DNA of 64,000 bases from a virus: IMG/VR virus record IMGVR_UViG_3300026290_000001; one strand, 5' to 3'. Made by a program: the position numbers and the translations under genes. Each line of letters begins with the position of its first letter. Position 1 is the first letter of the stretch. Under the pieces are notes generated by a model, which saw nothing but the letters and a program-made list of their open reading frames with translations, ran no database searches and had not been told where the DNA came from. Shown piece after piece: positions 8,521-42,788 of the stretch.

Positions 8521-9323
8521 TGATAGAATTAAATAATTTTTACATAGGCGAGTCTGTTAATTTTATGCGTTACAATATTCCAGACAACTACATTGATTTA
8601 ACTATTACTTCACCACCTTATGATGATTTAAGAAAATATAATGGATTTATATTTGATTATCAAAGTATGTTTAAGGAATTATATAGAGTTACTAAAGACG
8701 GTGGAATTGTAGTTTGGGTAGTAGGAGATAAAACTGAAAATGGTAGTGAAACATTAACAAGTTTTAAACATGCTTTATATGCTAAAGAAATCGGTTTTAA
8801 TGTTCACGATACACAAATTTATTATAAGAATAATCCTATACCAACAACAGGCAATAGATATCATCAACACTTTGAATATATGTTCGTATTTAGCAAGAAT
8901 AAACCAAGGGTATTTAATCCAATCAAGGAAGATTGTAAATATAGTGGTTTGGCTAATATGAAAAATAGAGGCAAGGATGGTTCATTAAATTATACTAAAA
9001 TTGAAAGAACTAAAGATAAAAAGGTAGGTAATGTTTTCTTTTATTCTATTGGAGGGGGTATTACTACTAAAGATAAAATTGCTTATAGTCATCCTGCGTT
9101 GTTTCCAGATAAATTAGCCGAAGATCAAATAATAACTTGGAGCAATAAAGAAGATATTATTTTTGACCCAATGTGCGGTAGTGGTACTACTTGTAAAATG
9201 GCATGGTTAAATAAAAGAAATTTTATTGGAATTGATATAAGTGAAGAATATATAAATGATATTTGTATACCTAGACTAAATATATATGGTTGGCAACAAA
9301 AGCAAAATATAAAAATATCATAA
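8521..9323 (+). CDS. DNA methyltransferase, SPPY type; paralog of 3506..4345
   Basis: Track ORF 8490..9323; the ATG lies upstream of the AAAGGAGA RBS, so TTG 8521 is the probable start; TITSPPYDDLRKYNG, DPMCGSGTTCKMAWLNKRNFIGID. Confidence 0.8.
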
Positions 9324-9910: not shown

Positions 9911-9955
9911 ATAGGCATTTTCAACTTATCACAAATGCCTATATATTGGGCTTTT
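9911..9955 (+). terminator. perfect 10-bp stem hairpin followed by a short T-run, candidate intrinsic terminator
   Basis: ATAGGCATTT (9911-9920), 12-nt loop, AAATGCCTAT (9933-9942), then ATATTGGGCTTTTAC. Confidence 0.35.
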
Positions 9956-22546: not shown

Positions 22547-24097
22547 TTGTTTATGGCAGAAAAAATAGATAAGTCAGAAATTGTTAATATCCAAAATGAA
22601 ATTATGTTAACAGGATGTATCTATAAGAAACCAGATATATTTGTAGAATATGGTCAACATATTAAAAGTAAATATGACTTTGCAGATGATGTTACTAAAT
22701 TCTTTTATGATAATGCTGAAATTATATATCAAAAAAGAACACAAACCTTTAATCAAAATGCTATAAATGCTTATATGACTGAAGATAAAGAACGATTAGC
22801 AATATATAAAAAATATGGAGGTTGGAAAACATTACAATCATGGATAGACCTTGCGGTAGTAGATGATTTTAAAAATTATTTTGACATATTAAAAAAATAT
22901 TCGTTGTTAAGAGAATATGATCGTAATGGATTTAATGTTCAAAAAATAATAAAACATCCCAAATTTGAATTATTTAATGCTGTTGATATATATAGATTAA
23001 TTAGAAGTAAAGCGGATAGAATACATACGGTTATTTTAACTAACAATGAGAGTGAAATTTTAAATGAAAAAATGTGCATGTTGATTGATACATGTTTAGA
23101 GAAACCAGATGTTGGATTATCCCTGCCATTCCCCATTATGAATGATTTATTTAGGGGAATAAGGACTGGTACTATGATGGCAAATGGTGCTTTATCTAAC
23201 AGTGGTAAATCAAGATATTTGTTTAAAATAGTTGCTTATATAGCACTTATTTTAAAACAAAAAGTGTGTGTATTGCTAAATGAAATGTCAATTGATGATA
23301 TGAGACTAGCATTATTAACTACAGTTATAAATAATCCAGAGTTTGCTCAATTGCATGGGTTTAAAATTACAAAAAATGAACGAGAAATAGCATTGGGATT
23401 ATATAAAGATAAAGATGGTAATTTTATTTATAGAAAAATAGATGATTCAGGAAATTATCTTGAAACACTAGACGAGTATAGGAATAAATTAATTGAACAA
23501 TCAGATGAATATAAAATAATTTATCAAATAGGCAATTGGATCGAAAGGGAAATGGACGGATTAATATATGCAAAAGATGTTAGTGATGGATATGATGACA
23601 AAAGTTTGTCATATGAAATAAGAAAACATAATTTAATTTATGGAGTTAAATATTATTTTTATGACACTTTAAAAAATGAACAAAGCACTATTGGAGATTG
23701 GTCGGCACTTAAAAGAACTGTAACAAAGTTATCCGAATTAACTACTCAATTAGATGTTTTTGTTTTTGGAAGCATACAACTTACTGATGATGTAAATCAC
23801 ATTGAACCATTAATGATGAGTTCAAGTAATATTGCAGAATGTAAGGCTGTTAAACATGTTTTAGATTCATTAACTATGTTCAAACATCTAAGAAAAGATG
23901 AATATAATAAATATTATTATATTACTACATCTGATTGGGGAGAACCAGAAGAAAGAGATTTGGATTTTAATAAACGATATTGTATTTTTGTTGTGGATAA
24001 AAACAGGACGGGAAGAAAAACTACCATGTTATTTGAAATTGATCTTGATAAAAACATATGGATAGAATGTGGGGAAGTTTTTAGAAAAGAAAAATAA
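22547..24097 (+). CDS. replicative DNA helicase, DnaB-like
   Basis: Walker A-like GALSNSGKSRY followed by LLNEMSIDDMRLALL, resembling the DnaB SLEMS block. Confidence 0.55.
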   Translation: MFMAEKIDKSEIVNIQNEIMLTGCIYKKPDIFVEYGQHIKSKYDFADDVTKFFYDNAEIIYQKRTQTFNQNAINAYMTEDKERLAIYKKYGGWKTLQSWIDLAVVDDFKNYFDILKKYSLLREYDRNGFNVQKIIKHPKFELFNAVDIYRLIRSKADRIHTVILTNNESEILNEKMCMLIDTCLEKPDVGLSLPFPIMNDLFRGIRTGTMMANGALSNSGKSRYLFKIVAYIALILKQKVCVLLNEMSIDDMRLALLTTVINNPEFAQLHGFKITKNEREIALGLYKDKDGNFIYRKIDDSGNYLETLDEYRNKLIEQSDEYKIIYQIGNWIEREMDGLIYAKDVSDGYDDKSLSYEIRKHNLIYGVKYYFYDTLKNEQSTIGDWSALKRTVTKLSELTTQLDVFVFGSIQLTDDVNHIEPLMMSSSNIAECKAVKHVLDSLTMFKHLRKDEYNKYYYITTSDWGEPEERDLDFNKRYCIFVVDKNRTGRKTTMLFEIDLDKNIWIECGEVFRKEK

Positions 24098-26892: not shown

Positions 26893-27732
26893 ATGAGTTA
26901 TATAATAGATTTATACACCCAAGGCAATTCTGCGTTAAAAATTTCTAAACAAGAAAATATTCCTGTTCATCAAATATACAAAATATTGGAAAAAAACAAT
27001 ATTCCAAGAAGAAGCAATCGAATAAATAATAAAAAATATAGTTGCAATGAAGATTATTTTGAGAATATAAATACGTCAGAAAAAGCATATTGGTTAGGTT
27101 TTTTATACGCTGATGGCTTTGTTTCAAAAAATGAAAAATTTTATAATAGAGGATCGTTAGGAATATCTTTGGCAATAGAAGACAAAGAACATTTAGAAAC
27201 ATTAAATAAAGATTTAAATTCAAATTATCCTATAAACATATATAGTGTAGTTAATGGTTATAAAATTGGTATTCAATATGCAAGAATAATTATTAAAAGT
27301 GAAAAAATATTTAATGATTTGATTGATAAGGGTTTAAGTGAAAGAAAATCAGAGATTAAAAAACGTCCAAAAAAAATACCAGAAGAATTAATTAAATATT
27401 TTATACTTGGATATTTTGATGGGAATGGTTGTATTTCAATACATAGAAGAAAAAATAATGATAAGTTGGATTTTAAATTTAGAATTACAAGTACAGATGA
27501 TGTATTATATTTTATTACAGATTATTTATATAACAATAAATTAATATACAATAAAAGAAAATTAGACAAACGACACATATACGATATTGTCTCTAATTTA
27601 GAATACGGAGGAAATAGGCAAGTATATAAAATTATGCACCATCTGTATCAAAATACACCCAGATTTTTAAAAAGAAAACATGAAAGATATTTAATATTAA
27701 AAAATCAACTTATGAAAGAAGGGGAAATATGA
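26893..27732 (+). CDS. free-standing LAGLIDADG homing endonuclease
   Basis: Two LAGLIDADG-type motifs (LGFLYADGF, LGYFDGNGC) about 100 aa apart. Confidence 0.7.
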   Translation: MSYIIDLYTQGNSALKISKQENIPVHQIYKILEKNNIPRRSNRINNKKYSCNEDYFENINTSEKAYWLGFLYADGFVSKNEKFYNRGSLGISLAIEDKEHLETLNKDLNSNYPINIYSVVNGYKIGIQYARIIIKSEKIFNDLIDKGLSERKSEIKKRPKKIPEELIKYFILGYFDGNGCISIHRRKNNDKLDFKFRITSTDDVLYFITDYLYNNKLIYNKRKLDKRHIYDIVSNLEYGGNRQVYKIMHHLYQNTPRFLKRKHERYLILKNQLMKEGEI

Positions 27733-31072: not shown

Positions 31073-34000
31073 ATGAATCAAACCACTAACCAAATATATG
31101 AATTTAAAGCAACACCGATATTTGAAAGGTATTATAATGACGAAACAAATTGGGGAGTATATAACTTCACCACTACAGATGATATTCCCCATTGTAATGA
31201 TTATAATGATCCTTTTCAAGAAAACTATACTGATAATATTAAACAAAGTACTTTAGTGGGTAAGTGTCAACAACTTTTTCTTGGTTCTGAATACATAGTA
31301 AATGCTAAACTTGAATACAATTCAAAATATAAAAAACACCAGTATGTACCTATTAATGTTACTGCAATTGTTCCTAAATCCGAACAATCACAAAGAGCAT
31401 TTTTAGAAGCAATAATTACCAAAAAACAAGCAGATATATTACTTGAAGTATATCCTAATATTGTTGAAGATACTATCAATGGGAATACGGACAATATTGA
31501 TTTGTCAAAAACTAAAGGTATTAAAGATTATACTTGGAATTATATTAAGGAAAGAATTATTAATAATTATGTAATATCAGATATTATTACATTGCTTCAA
31601 CCTATTGGTGTTACTTATTCAATGATTAAAAAACTATTAATGCACTATGGCAATCCTACTTTACTTAAAAATGATTTGTTAGACAATCCATATATTTTAA
31701 CTAAGATTTATGGATTGGGTTTTAAAAGAGTAGATGGATTGGCATTAAAATTAAAACCAGAATTAAAAGTATCAAATAAAAGGACTTATGCTTTTTTAAA
31801 TTATTATCTAAGAGAAATAGGAGAATCAAACGGTCATACATGGGTTACTTTTGATTTTCTTGAGAATGCAGTTCGTGACAATATTATTGAATGTGAAGAA
31901 TTGTATTATAAAATTTTAGATGTTGAAAGAGATACACAAGCATTATTATATATTGATGATGAAAAAAATAGAATTGGGTTAAAATATTATAGAGATATTG
32001 AAATTGCTATTTATGATATTTTAAAAGAATTGGATAGTTATAAGTCTGATTGGGATTTAGATGTTGAGAAGGGGATACAGCAAGCAGAAAAAGAACAAGG
32101 ATTTGAATTTTCTGATGAGCAAAAAAATATTATTAAAGAATCAGTAAAACATAATGTTGTTAGTATTTCAGGCAAGGCAGGTTGTGTTGATTGTGATACT
32201 GAATATTTTAATGGAATTGAATGGATTAAAATATCAAAATATAAAAATAAAGATAAGGTATTACAATATAATAAAGATGGGAGTGCTGAATTAGTTACCC
32301 CCTTAGAATATCATAAGTATCCGGCAGAATATTTATGGCACTTTGAAACAAAGTATGGATTAGATCAATGTTTATCAGATGAACATAATGTATATTACAT
32401 AACTTCAAAAAATAATTTATATCACAAAACATTTAAGGAAGTTAGAGAAAATCATAATACAACTGGATTTAAAGGTAGATTTATTACTACTTTTAATTAT
32501 GAAGGTAAGGGATTACCTTATAATGAATGGGAAATAAGATTAAAAGTAGCAATAAAGGCAGATGGTAGTTTTTATAGTTCAAATCCTTATACTTGTTATA
32601 TTAATGTTAAAAAACAAAGAAAAAAAGATAGAATTGAATACTTGTTAGATAAAAATAATATAAATTATGAAATAATGAAAAGTGGGGAAGGATATAATAG
32701 ATATAAGTTTACATATTTAGATAACGAAAAAACATACACTAATGAATGGTATAATTGTAATAAGGAACAATTTAAAATCATTTTTGATGAAATATTTTAT
32801 TGGGATGGAAATTTTAATGATAGAGATCAATATTATACTTCATTAAAATCGGATGCAAATTTTATTCAATTTGTAGGAACAACATTAGGTTATAAATCAA
32901 CTATTCAAATTCAAAACAGATTAAATAGAAAATATAAAACTGCTGGAAAAGAATATACTAGAAAATCAATTGGTTATATAGTTGTTTTTACAAAAAGAAA
33001 TTTAATAGGTTTATGTTCAGACTCAAGAGAGGATCATACAAAAACCCCAATTATTCAATATAAAACATTAGATGGTTTTAAATATTGTTTTACCGTTCCT
33101 TCAGGTATGTTAGTTTTACGTAGAAATAATAAAATATTTATTACCGGGAATTCAGGTAAAACCACTATTTCTAGAGCATTACTAACAATATATAAAAATG
33201 CAAATAAAACAATAGGAACCTGTGCACTTTCTGCCAAAGCTGCACAACGTATCACTGAAGCAACTGGTTTTCAAGCATCTACTATTCACCGTTTATTAGG
33301 AGCAAAAGGATTAAATGAATTTACTTTTAATTATGAAAATCCATTACCTTATGATGTGATTTTAGCAGATGAATGTAGTATGAATAATGCAAGAATTTTT
33401 TATGATTTGATCTCAGCAATTAAACCAGGATCGAAATTAATCATGTCTGGTGATTGTCGGCAGTTACCTCCTATTGGTTTTGGGAACATTTTTAGTGACG
33501 TTCTTGAATTAAAAGAGCAATTTAATATTTATGAACTTACTAAAGTACATAGGCAAGCAGAAAAATCAGGAATATTAACCGATGCTAATCTAATTAGAGA
33601 GGGTATTAATCCTATTCAACAACCTGAATTTAAAATTGTTAGTGGTGAATTGCAAGACATGTACTACATGTTTAGAGATAATAAACAAGCATTAAATGAT
33701 ATTGCAATTAAAATGTATTTAAAATCAATTGAAGAAGATGGGTTGGATGATGTTATAATTATTACTCCAAGAAAAAAAGATTGTATTAATAGTACTATTG
33801 AAATTAATAGAATAATTCAAGATAAATTAATTAGTGACAATAAACCATTTTTAAAAAAGGGTAATTTAAAATTTAAACTTGGTGCAAAGGTAATTCAAAG
33901 AGTAAATAATTATGATAAGAATATTTTTAATGGTGAAATAGGATATATTGTTGATATTTTTAAGGCAAAACCTACAGATGAATATGACAATATGTTTACA

Positions 34001-34282
34001 GTACAATATCCTAGTAAAACCATTACCTATTCAAAGAACGAATTGGATCAGATTGATTTAGCATATGCCCTTACGATCCATCTCGCACAGGGTAGCGGAT
34101 ATAAAACTACAATAGTTATTATTGATAATTCTCATTATATTTTACTTGATAGTTGTTTACTTTATACAGGTATTACTAGAGCGAAACAAAGGTGCTTATT
34201 ATTGGCTGAACCTTCAGCATTTAAAAAATGTATTGTTAATAATAAAAGTATTGAAAGGCAAACATGGTTTAAAGAATTTTAA
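31073..34282 (+). CDS. RecD-like (superfamily 1) DNA helicase with an apparent intein in the P-loop
   Basis: C-terminal AYALTIHLAQGSGYKTT and LLYTGITRAK; Walker A split as ISGKAG / SGKTT by a 323-aa insert. Confidence 0.7.
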   Translation: MNQTTNQIYEFKATPIFERYYNDETNWGVYNFTTTDDIPHCNDYNDPFQENYTDNIKQSTLVGKCQQLFLGSEYIVNAKLEYNSKYKKHQYVPINVTAIVPKSEQSQRAFLEAIITKKQADILLEVYPNIVEDTINGNTDNIDLSKTKGIKDYTWNYIKERIINNYVISDIITLLQPIGVTYSMIKKLLMHYGNPTLLKNDLLDNPYILTKIYGLGFKRVDGLALKLKPELKVSNKRTYAFLNYYLREIGESNGHTWVTFDFLENAVRDNIIECEELYYKILDVERDTQALLYIDDEKNRIGLKYYRDIEIAIYDILKELDSYKSDWDLDVEKGIQQAEKEQGFEFSDEQKNIIKESVKHNVVSISGKAGCVDCDTEYFNGIEWIKISKYKNKDKVLQYNKDGSAELVTPLEYHKYPAEYLWHFETKYGLDQCLSDEHNVYYITSKNNLYHKTFKEVRENHNTTGFKGRFITTFNYEGKGLPYNEWEIRLKVAIKADGSFYSSNPYTCYINVKKQRKKDRIEYLLDKNNINYEIMKSGEGYNRYKFTYLDNEKTYTNEWYNCNKEQFKIIFDEIFYWDGNFNDRDQYYTSLKSDANFIQFVGTTLGYKSTIQIQNRLNRKYKTAGKEYTRKSIGYIVVFTKRNLIGLCSDSREDHTKTPIIQYKTLDGFKYCFTVPSGMLVLRRNNKIFITGNSGKTTISRALLTIYKNANKTIGTCALSAKAAQRITEATGFQASTIHRLLGAKGLNEFTFNYENPLPYDVILADECSMNNARIFYDLISAIKPGSKLIMSGDCRQLPPIGFGNIFSDVLELKEQFNIYELTKVHRQAEKSGILTDANLIREGINPIQQPEFKIVSGELQDMYYMFRDNKQALNDIAIKMYLKSIEEDGLDDVIIITPRKKDCINSTIEINRIIQDKLISDNKPFLKKGNLKFKLGAKVIQRVNNYDKNIFNGEIGYIVDIFKAKPTDEYDNMFTVQYPSKTITYSKNELDQIDLAYALTIHLAQGSGYKTTIVIIDNSHYILLDSCLLYTGITRAKQRCLLLAEPSAFKKCIVNNKSIERQTWFKEF
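32183..33151 (+). other. candidate intein (Hint plus LAGLIDADG-like endonuclease domain) in the helicase Walker A motif
   Basis: Starts CVDCDT (Cys1, DT at 5-6); ends ITGN with +1 Ser; internal IKADGSF and FYWDGNF about 100 aa apart; removal restores GKAGSGKTT. Confidence 0.5.
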
Positions 34283-42257: not shown

Positions 42258-42788
42258 ATGAAAATAATAAATATATCGGGCAAGGCGCAACACGGGAAGG
42301 ACACAACGGCATTAATTTTAAAAAAGAAATTAGAATCAAAAAATAAAAAAGTTATAATAACTCACTATGCAGACCTACTCAAATATGAAGCAAAACAATT
42401 TTTTAATTGGGACGGAAATAAAGATGAAAAAGGTAGACAAATACTTCAGTATATGGGTACTGATGTAATAAGAAAAATAAATCCTGATTATTGGGTTAAT
42501 TTCATTAAAGAATTTATGTCAATGTTTGAAAATGAATGGGATTATGTAATAATTCCTGATTGCAGGTTCCCCAATGAGATTGAAGTGTGGGGCATTGATA
42601 ATTGGCCTAATGTATCGGTTAGAATTATTAGAGATAATTTTATTAGTAATCTCACTCCTGAACAATTAAATCATCCATCTGAAACTGCTTTAGATGATTA
42701 TGAATTTGATTATTACATATTTAATTCTGATGATATAAATTATTTAAATAAAGAAGTAGATTATTTAGTTGAATGGCTGGAGGTATAA
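42258..42788 (+). CDS. deoxynucleoside monophosphate kinase-like P-loop protein
   Basis: P-loop ISGKAQHGKDT. Confidence 0.55.
   Translation: MKIINISGKAQHGKDTTALILKKKLESKNKKVIITHYADLLKYEAKQFFNWDGNKDEKGRQILQYMGTDVIRKINPDYWVNFIKEFMSMFENEWDYVIIPDCRFPNEIEVWGIDNWPNVSVRIIRDNFISNLTPEQLNHPSETALDDYEFDYYIFNSDDINYLNKEVDYLVEWLEV

What the first reader, a model, noticed from the sequence alone, without database searches (positions are those of the whole stretch)
32183..33151. Apparent intein with LAGLIDADG-like endonuclease domain splitting the P-loop of the RecD-like helicase
The helicase Walker A is interrupted: …VVSISGKAG | CVDCDT … ITGN | SGKTTISRALL. The 323-aa insert begins with Cys followed by DT at positions 5-6 (intein block A), ends in Asn followed by a Ser nucleophile, and contains two LAGLIDADG-like motifs (IKADGSF, FYWDGNF) about 100 aa apart. 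Excision would rebuild a canonical GKAGSGKTT P-loop, a classic intein insertion hot spot.
Basis: partly seen in the sequence, partly recalled or inferred. Interest (0 to 1): 0.7.

Follow-up and report, generated by a model that had tools for sequence, protein, structure and literature searches.

The report
Homing intein splitting a phage helicase P-loop
A self-splicing, mobile protein element (an intein with a homing endonuclease) interrupts the ATP-binding loop of a phage RecD2-like helicase; the type is well known, but this copy belongs to a large unannotated family that hops between ATP-binding loops of unrelated genes and has an unusual set of catalytic residues.

Summary
Nucleotides 32183-33151 encode a 323-aa in-frame insert (CVDCDTEY...FITGN|SGKTT) between G and S of the Walker A motif of a 1069-aa RecD2-like helicase (31073-34282) in a large phage contig.

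The insert has no Pfam hit of its own. It belongs to a family of at least 190 distinct copies. Most sit at G|[S/C]GK of helicases, terminases, PhoH, dNMP kinases, DnaC and others. Some sit in the methyltransferase glycine loop.

Cys1, block B His, terminal Asn and the LAGLIDADG acidic residues are invariant or nearly so. Unusually, block F position 4 is an invariant Cys (normally Asp), G:5 is Thr and the penultimate residue is Gly. That pattern matches the class 3 AceL NrdHF intein, its closest solved relative.

Verdict: a real intein and a new member of a known kind. The splicing route (class 1 or class-3-like) is open.

The parts
31073..34282 (+). Precursor ORF (1069 aa): RecD2-like SF1B helicase containing the intein
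   Evidence: ORF list. Pfam HHH_RecD2, AAA_30, AAA_19, SH3_13, UvrD_C_2. TIGR01448 414 bits in 2 stretches. After in-silico splicing, 439.7 bits in one stretch covering profile positions 24-711 of 713.
31073..32182 (+). N-extein (370 aa), ending ...NVVSISGKAG, the first half of Walker A
   Evidence: Contiguous with the C-extein in the intein-less allele L084.
32183..33151 (+). Intein, 323 aa (Cys1 ... Asn323)
32183..32503 (+). HINT splicing domain, N-terminal lobe (intein residues 1-107): block A (C1-V-D-x-D-T6) and block B (S65-D-E-H68; B:12 = V70)
   Evidence: Invariant C1, V2, D3, T6, W14, P40, H68. The family profile aligns residues 15-94 to the AceL NrdHF intein 6zgq, S65/H68 to its S/H. 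The domain boundary is approximate, taken from the secondary structure.
32504..33028 (+). LAGLIDADG homing endonuclease domain (intein residues ~108-282). Motif 1 ...VAIKADGSF has D127 (nt 32537-32572). Motif 2 ...IFYWDGNF has D208 (nt 32777-32815). K183 and Q229 are also conserved.
   Evidence: D127 158/162, D208 160/165, K183 159/161, Q229 163/164 across the family. I-DmoI and I-Tsp061I structural matches. Pfam LAGLIDADG_3 hits 17 of 30 family members but not this copy.
33029..33151 (+). HINT C-terminal lobe (residues 283-323): block F ...F-K-Y-C302-F-T-V-P-S-G... and block G I-F-I-T321-G322-N323
   Evidence: Y301, C302, F303 in 171/171; T321 163/169; G322 155/169 (His in 9); N323 169/169. 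Assigning C302 to F:4 rests on my alignment of KYCFTVP to the canonical VFDLTVP block F, which I recalled from memory.
33152..34282 (+). C-extein (376 aa plus stop), starting with the Ser+1 nucleophile: SGKTTISRALL...
   Evidence: 100% and 96% identical C-exteins in viral contigs. Across the family +1 is Ser or Cys, and Thr once.
31883..33451 (+). Zone of raised extein divergence around the insertion (about 300 nt on each side of the intein) relative to the intein-less allele; a putative co-conversion tract
   Evidence: Identity to L084 by distance from the site: 98.4% (-1110..-300), 84% (-300..-100), 90% (-100..-30), 67% (-30..0), 77% (0..+30), 90-91% (+30..+300), 97.4% (+300..+915). Excess mismatches within +/-30 nt give binomial P 1.6e-9.

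Best explanation
The 969-nt segment encodes a bifunctional intein: a HINT protein-splicing domain with a LAGLIDADG homing endonuclease inserted in it. It is translated as part of the RecD2-like helicase precursor, where it separates GKAG from SGKTT, so the precursor cannot bind ATP. The intein then removes itself autocatalytically. Cys1 attacks the Gly(-1) carbonyl, assisted by Ser65 and His68 of block B, to form a thioester. The N-extein is passed to Ser+1. Asn323 cyclises and releases the intein. An O-to-N shift then restores a normal GKAGSGKTT P-loop and an active helicase. At the DNA level, the endonuclease domain cuts intein-less alleles at the sequence encoding the glycine-rich loop, and recombinational repair copies the intein in (homing). 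This family recognises a short motif shared by very many nucleotide-binding proteins, so it has repeatedly moved between non-homologous genes. What is shown: the insertion, the fold, residue conservation, presence/absence polymorphism, and the distribution across unrelated hosts. What is inferred: splicing, endonuclease activity, the recognition sequence, and the exact order of nucleophiles. The invariant block F:4 Cys and G:5 Thr, shared with the class 3 AceL NrdHF intein, leave open whether Cys302 is a helper or a second branch-point nucleophile. The confidence of 0.62 is for this Cys1-initiated version; that the segment is a functional or recently functional homing intein of some splicing class I put at about 0.93.
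For: - Exact in-frame insert with Cys1 ... Asn323 | Ser+1.
- Catalytic residues are invariant or near-invariant over 161-171 scored distinct copies (194 unique aligned rows), including the endonuclease Asp pair, Lys and Gln.
- An intein-less 95%-identical allele (L084) reads GRAG|SGKTT, with 99 of 120 nt identical around the site. 78 of 80 closest relatives have no P-loop intein. Brevibacillus phage Sundance reads GKAGTGKTS.
- Divergence peaks at the site, as a co-conversion tract would.
- In-silico splicing gives one continuous TIGR01448 match. AAA_30 rises from 84 to 104 bits and the match extends back from profile position 29 to position 2.
- The same intein family sits at G|[S/C]GK in Terminase_3, PhoH, DNMK and AAA_24 (verified), and by precomputed Pfam labels in DnaC/IstB, guanylate kinase, ABC, RecA and DnaB_C. 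There are 243 viral stretches and 26 extein (host) clusters; cross-cluster intein identity reaches 77%, while some helicase-to-helicase pairs are only ~42%.
- P-loop hopping by inteins between non-homologous proteins is documented elsewhere (PMC10710043).
Against: - No experimental evidence of splicing or cleavage.
- The window copy alone hits no Pfam intein, Hint or LAGLIDADG model, and only 3 of 30 relatives weakly hit Intein_splicing.
- The penultimate His and the block F Asp of standard class 1 inteins are absent, so a plain class 1 route is not guaranteed.
- The window copy has Asn226 where 144 of 164 relatives have Asp, so its endonuclease might be impaired.
- DNA at occupied target sites is conserved only at codon positions 1-2, so no nucleotide recognition sequence could be defined.
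- Block F numbering rests on my own alignment to a canonical motif recalled from memory. The model coordinates could not be inspected.
Confidence: 0.62

Rival explanations
1. It is an intein, but it splices by a class-3-like or relay route. Cys302 (block F:4) forms the first or an obligatory branched thioester with the N-extein, using the Cys-His68-Thr321 triad as in AceL NrdHF. Cys1 is then auxiliary, for example a relay nucleophile or a redox (disulfide) switch partner.
For: - Cys F:4 is in 171/171 copies and Thr G:5 in 163/169. The penultimate residue is Gly, there is no block F His, and B:7 is Ser. This is the residue pattern reported for AceL NrdHF (S65, H68, M70, C124, T144, G145, N146), an experimentally verified class 3 intein in which G145H abolishes activity (PMC7891396).
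- Most class 3 inteins sit in ATPase P-loops and have a proposed phage origin (PMC2807308, PMC4031507).
- Ser+1 is frequent, as in class 3.
Against: - Cys1 is invariant (161/161). In class 3 inteins position 1 is non-nucleophilic by definition (PMC2807308, PMC7891396).
- The Trp at B:12 is absent; the position holds Val, Ile, Cys, Phe, Met or Leu.
- Class 1 inteins with Cys at F:4 are known and polyphyletic (PMC3196547), so Cys F:4 alone does not prove the mechanism.
Confidence: 0.3
2. It is a decayed or inactive intein remnant. The helicase gene would be a pseudogene, or the segment would be tolerated without splicing.
For: The window copy has no direct Pfam intein hit and carries N226 instead of the family's Asp. 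Inactive intein pseudogenes exist in prophage remnants (PMC3196547). Free-standing, catalytically dead relatives of this family also exist (P0132, P0125).
Against: - The 1069-codon frame is uninterrupted.
- Every splicing residue that is invariant in the family is present in this copy.
- Both exteins retain full RecD2 similarity.
- A P-loop split by 323 aa could not bind ATP, so an unspliced product would be a dead helicase in the middle of a replication module.
Confidence: 0.05
3. The segment is an integral accessory domain of this helicase lineage, or an annotation or assembly artefact such as a chimeric contig, and not a mobile element.
For: Some Enterocloster phage helicases carry a homologous segment at the same place and are annotated as a single protein.
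Against: - The same sequence occurs identically in two independent viral contigs (L003, L004).
- 78 of 80 nearest helicases lack it.
- Homologous segments are embedded in at least 26 extein clusters spanning unrelated protein families, always with C...N|[S/C/T] boundaries.
- The fold is HINT plus LAGLIDADG.
Confidence: 0.01

Closest known systems
AceL NrdHF split intein (PDB 6ZGQ; Hoffmann et al. 2020, PMC7891396), an atypical class 3 intein from a phage-like metagenomic contig
   Different: AceL NrdHF starts with Ala1 (no N-terminal nucleophile), is naturally split with a separate GIY-YIG gene, and sits in an RNR beta-subunit gene. The window intein has an invariant Cys1, is contiguous with an internal LAGLIDADG domain, and sits in a Walker A loop.
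Endonuclease-containing class 1 inteins with solved structures: PI-SceI (Sce VMA), PI-PfuI, PI-PkoII, Tli/Pho VMA inteins
   Different: Sequence identity is only 11-15%. The window intein is more compact (323 aa versus 360-540, with no extra DNA-recognition region evident). It has Cys in place of the usual Asp at block F:4, and a penultimate Gly where class 1 inteins typically have His.
P-loop inteins of mycobacteriophage TerL, mycobacterial DnaB (DnaBi1) and archaeal MCM/RFC (PMC5050341, PMC4760082, PMC6195587), and the class 3 'cluster 1' P-loop inteins of Anaeramoeba and phages (PMC10710043)
   Same: They are inserted in the Walker A loop of ATPases. They are phage-associated. Related inteins occur in P-loops of non-homologous proteins, which implies non-allelic spread.
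   Different: The 'classic' site described there is between the invariant Lys and Thr (GK|T). This family inserts two residues upstream (G|[S/C]GK) and also occupies the methyltransferase motif I, MetK and other glycine-rich loops. Those families are WCT class 3 or ordinary class 1. I did not compare sequences with them directly.
RecD2 (TIGR01448) SF1B helicases of large Firmicutes phages (SPbeta-like, Brevibacillus phage Sundance, Enterocloster phages)
   Same: The host protein has the same domain order and 30-38% identity. Enterocloster phages CB457P2, CB473P2 and PMBT24 carry a homologous intein at the same site, unannotated in GenBank.
   Different: The score stays below the TIGR01448 equivalog cut-off even after in-silico splicing (439.7 versus 500), so the host is RecD2-like rather than a certified RecD2 orthologue.

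Membership tests
Intein (HINT protein-splicing element) | In-frame insertion in a conserved host protein, with intein-less homologues and a precise boundary | tested here: met
   L084 is 95% identical and lacks the insert (GRAG|SGKTT). 78 of 80 nearest relatives have no P-loop intein. Sundance helicase reads GKAGTGKTS.
Intein (HINT protein-splicing element) | N-terminal Cys/Ser, block B (T/S)xxH, C-terminal Asn, and a +1 Cys/Ser/Thr | tested here: met
   C1, S65-x-x-H68, N323, S+1. Across the family these are invariant or conservatively substituted.
Intein (HINT protein-splicing element) | Penultimate His (block G:6) and Asp at block F:4. These are typical but not obligatory. | tested here: not met
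   G322 and C302. Both substitutions are documented in functional inteins (PMC5050341, PMC7891396, PMC3196547).
Intein (HINT protein-splicing element) | HINT fold | tested here: met
Intein (HINT protein-splicing element) | Match to curated sequence models (Pfam Intein_splicing, Hint) | tested here: not met
   The window copy has no hit at E<=1. Only 3 of 30 relatives hit Intein_splicing and 2 of 30 hit Hint, all weakly.
Intein (HINT protein-splicing element) | Autocatalytic splicing with extein ligation | not testable with these tools
   Needs expression plus western blot or mass spectrometry.
LAGLIDADG homing endonuclease (two-motif, monomeric type) | Two LAGLIDADG helices, each ending in a catalytic acidic residue, in an alpha-beta-beta-alpha-beta-beta-alpha pseudo-dimer fold | tested here: met
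LAGLIDADG homing endonuclease (two-motif, monomeric type) | Match to Pfam LAGLIDADG models | tested here: inconclusive
   The window copy has no hit, but 17 of 30 family members hit LAGLIDADG_3, best E 1e-7.
LAGLIDADG homing endonuclease (two-motif, monomeric type) | Site-specific cleavage of the intein-less allele | not testable with these tools
   Indirect support only: presence/absence polymorphism and a co-conversion-like divergence tract.
Class 3 inteins | No Cys/Ser/Thr nucleophile at intein position 1 | tested here: not met
   Cys1 in 161/161 copies. Definition from PMC2807308 and PMC7891396.
Class 3 inteins | WCT triplet: Trp B:12, Cys F:4, Thr G:5 | tested here: inconclusive
   Cys F:4 (171/171) and Thr G:5 (163/169) are present. 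B:12 is Val, Ile, Cys, Phe, Met or Leu and never Trp. The proven class 3 AceL NrdHF intein also lacks the Trp, having Met (PMC7891396).
Class 3 inteins | Block F Cys branched thioester intermediate | not testable with these tools
   Needs mutagenesis (C302A, C1A) and trapping of the intermediate.
RecD2 helicase (TIGR01448 equivalog) | Whole-protein score at or above the curated cut-off (500 bits) | tested here: not met
   414.1 bits unspliced and 439.7 bits spliced in silico. The domain architecture HHH_RecD2 + AAA_30 + SH3_13 + UvrD_C_2 is present, so I call it RecD2-like.

The most novel reading that the evidence does not exclude
This phage intein family keeps the class 1 N-terminal Cys together with the class 3 catalytic core (Cys F:4, His B:10, Thr G:5, Gly G:6), and its closest characterised relative is a proven class 3 intein. 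[quoted passage not shown] Structural work has argued that such a transition is improbable (PMC7664689). Its endonuclease may also be a generalist that recognises DNA encoding glycine-rich nucleotide-binding loops (Walker A, methyltransferase motif I, MetK loop), letting one intein lineage colonise dozens of unrelated phage genes.
Probability: 0.25. Interest if true: 0.65.

Novelty: new member of a known kind. Interest (0 to 1): 0.42.

Why it matters
For annotation: the helicase and its Enterocloster phage homologues are deposited as 'hypothetical protein' or 'exodeoxyribonuclease V' with no intein feature. Pfam models miss this family entirely, so hundreds of phage ATPases, terminases, kinases and methyltransferases are probably mis-sized or split in databases.

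For biology: the family is a clear case of non-allelic intein spread, guided by a short motif shared by unrelated proteins. It includes a natural occupied/empty allele pair (window versus L084) with a co-conversion-like footprint, which makes homing directly testable.

For mechanism and tools: a compact 323-aa intein with Cys1 plus Cys F:4/Thr G:5/Gly G:6 is a natural test of how class 3 splicing relates to class 1. Relatives of AceL NrdHF are of interest as fast ligation tools.

Tried and rejected
- Direct Pfam, NCBIfam and PDB-sequence searches with the insert alone found nothing meaningful. A single-sequence search with an artificial mini-intein also failed. Only profiles and structure prediction were informative.
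- I searched the window for further copies of the family and found none.
- I looked for a nucleotide-level recognition sequence by aligning 40 distinct occupied P-loop sites. Only codon positions 1-2 are conserved, which is what amino-acid constraint alone would give, so no target could be defined.
- I searched for class-3-like (non-Cys1) relatives with a HINT-only profile. None appeared. What did appear were fragments and a few free-standing, catalytically dead intein-like proteins.
- I tested whether two family inteins in one genome are recent copies. In L017 they are only 40% identical, so they are not a recent intragenomic duplication.
- GC content of the intein (0.21-0.27) differs little from that of the exteins (0.25-0.31), so composition gives no evidence of recent foreign origin.
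- Tori & Perler 2011 (PMC3133030) is not held in the library. What I say about class 3 inteins with an N-terminal nucleophile rests on secondary citations.
- Rejected explanations: integral helicase domain, assembly artefact, group I intron or free-standing endonuclease gene (the reading frame is continuous), and a BIL or Hedgehog-type domain (the +1 nucleophile and terminal Asn are present).
Full report
**1. Observation**

The window has a single 1069-codon ORF at 31073..34282 on the + strand. NNKIFITGN. The preceding residues are ...NVVSISGKAG and the following ones are SGKTTISRALL. The two LAGLIDADG-like strings are at intein residues 124-130 and 205-211, which is 81 residues apart rather than about 100.

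**2. Host protein**

The ORF is a RecD2-type SF1B helicase.
- Pfam finds HHH_RecD2, AAA_30, AAA_19, SH3_13 and UvrD_C_2.
- NCBIfam TIGR01448 (RecD2) gives E 9e-124, but split into two stretches.
- With the 323 residues removed in silico, TIGR01448 matches in one stretch (residues 54-745 against profile 24-711 of 713, 439.7 bits).
- AAA_30 rises from 84.3 to 104.3 bits, and its match extends back from profile position 29 to position 2, so it now covers the P-loop.
- The score stays below the 500-bit equivalog cut-off, so I call the host RecD2-like.

Neighbouring genes are a radical SAM protein, NAD-dependent DNA ligase, a RecJ-like exonuclease, PolIII alpha, NrdD and an SPbeta-type tail protein. 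The same DNA is present at 100% identity in two IMG/VR viral contigs of 99.6 and 64.9 kb. This is the replication module of a large, AT-rich phage.

**3. What the insert is**

On its own the insert matches no Pfam, NCBIfam or PDB sequence. A search of the large protein collection found 114 homologues, most covering all 323 residues at 31-53% identity.

With 53 of them as an alignment, AlphaFold2 gave a model with mean pLDDT 96.1 and pTM 0.92.
- Foldseek against the PDB returns endonuclease-containing inteins first: TliVMA at E 2e-13, then PI-SceI, PI-PfuI, PhoVMA and PI-TkoII. I-DmoI matches the central domain.
- Among 30 family members, 17 hit Pfam LAGLIDADG_3 and 3 weakly hit Intein_splicing.

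The architecture is therefore HINT N-lobe (about residues 1-107), LAGLIDADG endonuclease (about 108-282) and HINT C-lobe (283-323).

**4. Evidence that it is an insertion, probably acquired by homing**

I searched viral contigs with the C-extein and recovered 80 helicase loci.
- 78 have an uninterrupted P-loop.
- The closest, L084 (IMGVR_UViG_3300010346_000388), encodes a helicase 95% identical to the in-silico-spliced window protein and reads ...GISGRAG|SGKTTISRALL. 99 of 120 nt around the junction are identical.
- Brevibacillus phage Sundance reads GKAGTGKTS.
- Enterocloster phages CB457P2, CB473P2 and PMBT24 carry a homologous intein at the same position, unannotated in GenBank.

Nucleotide identity between the window exteins and L084 varies with distance from the site:

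| Distance from site (nt) | Identity |
|---|---|
| -1110 to -300 | 98.4% |
| -300 to -100 | 84% |
| -100 to -30 | 90% |
| -30 to 0 | 67% |
| 0 to +30 | 77% |
| +30 to +300 | 90-91% |
| +300 to +915 | 97.4% |

The excess of mismatches within +/-30 nt has binomial P 1.6e-9. This is the footprint expected if the intein arrived with flanking extein DNA from a diverged donor (co-conversion). Selection for a cleavage-resistant empty site would look similar.

**5. The family and its targets**

Scanning viral contigs found 243 stretches encoding relatives. In every copy with both ends, the boundaries are x|CVDxDTE[YF] ... [IV]T[GH]N|[S/C].

The commonest context is the Walker A loop, always G|[S/C]GK[S/T/D]. 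Verified hosts after in-silico splicing include Terminase_3, PhoH, dNMP kinase (DNMK) and AAA_24. Precomputed Pfam labels add DnaC/IstB, guanylate kinase, ABC, RecA, DnaB_C, AAA_25, SNF2 and T2SSE.

Other contexts are glycine-rich or catalytic loops:
- methyltransferase motif I (EPx|CGxGH followed by NPPY; only a weak Pfam hit);
- the MetK loop (|[S/C]GKDPSKVDR);
- TSCPD (G|CxNFMxGLSR);
- a RadA-like IEG|TFD site;
- a metallophosphatase GNHE|C site.

Clustering the exteins of 141 unique inteins gave 26 clusters at E<1e-6. That is an upper bound on distinct host families, because some clusters are divergent or truncated members of one family. Inteins from different clusters reach 77% identity, while some helicase-borne inteins are only ~42% identical to the window copy. 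For 30 of 141 inteins the nearest neighbour sits in a different cluster. This indicates repeated non-allelic transfer.

At the DNA level only codon positions 1-2 are conserved around occupied sites, so the recognition sequence cannot be read from these data.

The literature already describes P-loops as intein hot spots (PMC4760082, PMC5050341) and intein transfer between P-loops of non-homologous proteins (PMC10710043). The 'classic' site there is GK|T, whereas this family uses G|SGK, two residues upstream.

**6. Catalytic residues and likely mechanism**

The figures below come from 194 unique aligned rows, of which 161-171 are scored at each position.

| Position | Residue | Count |
|---|---|---|
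| A:1 | Cys | 161/161 |
| B:7 (residue 65) | Ser/Thr/Cys | 121/22/22 |
| B:10 (residue 68) | His | 165/165 |
| C-terminal (residue 323) | Asn | 169/169 |
| Endonuclease D127 | Asp | 158/162 |
| Endonuclease D208 | Asp | 160/165 |
| Endonuclease K183 | Lys | 159/161 |
| Endonuclease Q229 | Gln | 163/164 |

This conservation argues that both splicing and endonuclease activities are under selection. The window copy has all of these residues. Its one departure is Asn226, where 144 of 164 copies have Asp.

Three features are atypical for class 1 inteins:
- Block F position 4 is an invariant Cys (Y301-C302-F303 in 171/171), where standard inteins have Asp.
- G:5 is Thr (163/169).
- The penultimate residue is Gly (155/169), and no block F His is present.

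Against class 3 membership, class 3 inteins are defined by the lack of an N-terminal nucleophile and by Trp at B:12 (PMC2807308). Here Cys1 is invariant and B:12 is an aliphatic or other non-Trp residue. Class 1 inteins with Cys at F:4 are known and polyphyletic (PMC3196547).

My best estimate is Cys1-initiated (class 1) splicing with Cys302 assisting, at a probability of about 0.6. A class-3-like or relay route through Cys302, or a Cys1-Cys302 redox switch, gets about 0.3. Assigning C302 to F:4 rests on my alignment of KYCFTVP to the canonical VFDLTVP motif, which I recalled from memory. It is consistent with the AceL comparison.

**7. Novelty**

Inteins with LAGLIDADG domains in ATPase P-loops of phage replication genes are a known kind, and P-loop hopping has been published.

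Four things are new or under-described:
- this sequence family, which is invisible to Pfam;
- its G|SGK insertion register;
- its breadth of hosts, including methyltransferase and MetK loops;
- its hybrid Cys1 plus Cys F:4/Thr G:5/Gly G:6 catalytic set, related to AceL NrdHF.

I rate it a new member of a known kind, with moderate interest.

**8. Limits**

Nothing here demonstrates splicing or DNA cleavage. Model coordinates could not be inspected. Tori & Perler 2011 could not be read. No direct sequence comparison was made with the Anaeramoeba or mycobacteriophage P-loop inteins. Host names taken from precomputed Pfam accessions, other than those verified, rely on my memory of the accession names.

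Noticed in passing
window 26893-27732 (+): A 279-aa ORF lies between the RecJ-like gene and PolIII alpha, overlapping the PolIII start. It hits Pfam LAGLIDADG_3 (E 4e-7) and looks like a free-standing homing-endonuclease gene in the same replication module.
   Followed up: partly
L084:3437-4795 (IMGVR_UViG_3300010346_000388): The 95%-identical helicase that lacks the P-loop intein carries a different ~453-aa LAGLIDADG intein at another site (TVHL|CLPRNT ... FIGSN|CQGSG, the conserved H-x-x-QGS helicase motif near the C-terminus). Sister phages therefore have the same gene invaded at different sites.
   Followed up: partly
window 42279-42302 (ORF 42258-42788) and window 23189-23212 (ORF 22547-24097): These are other Walker A loops in the window. 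A small kinase-like ORF reads GKAQ|HGKD, resembling the dNMP-kinase (DNMK) hosts; it was not scanned against Pfam. It has His exactly where intein-bearing homologues have Cys+1, so it cannot host this intein without a substitution. A 516-aa ATPase reads ...LSNSGKS and is uninvaded.
   Followed up: no
L054 ORF starting at nt 9950 (IMGVR_UViG_3300029959_000005); L067 on the same contig: One 1378-aa ORF carries two inteins of this family, one in a P-loop (GAPA|C...ITGN|CGKST) and one in a GNHE|C...ITGN|CHLWD metallophosphatase-like motif. The same 94-kb contig has a third copy in its RecD2-like helicase (L067, 75-76% identical to the window intein).
   Followed up: partly
L017 and L018, ORFs at nt 8939 and 14254: Two family inteins lie 5 kb apart in one phage, in the helicase P-loop and in a TSCPD-like protein (GG|CANFMVGLSR). 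They are only 40% identical, so they are independent acquisitions and not a recent intragenomic copy.
   Followed up: yes
proteins P0132, P0125, P0123, P0128: These are free-standing proteins of about 240-257 aa, homologous end to end with the intein (SGDTEFFNG ... VPSGMLVLRRNGKLFITGDC). They lack Cys1, the block F Cys and the terminal Asn. They may be domesticated or decaying intein derivatives.
   Followed up: no
GenBank OP172754.1 50052-53354 (L001:2719-6021), also OP172756.1 and OQ326496.2: Cultured Enterocloster bolteae phages carry a homologous intein at the same helicase P-loop site (NAGAG|CVDSETEY...FITGN|CGKTS). The gene is annotated only as 'hypothetical protein' or 'exodeoxyribonuclease V'. 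These phages offer an experimentally tractable system.
   Followed up: partly
hosts P0054, P0061 and about 13 others: A sub-group of the family sits in motif I (EPx|CGxGH) of small NPPY-type methyltransferases and not in a Walker A loop. This suggests the element targets glycine-rich nucleotide-binding loops in general.
   Followed up: partly
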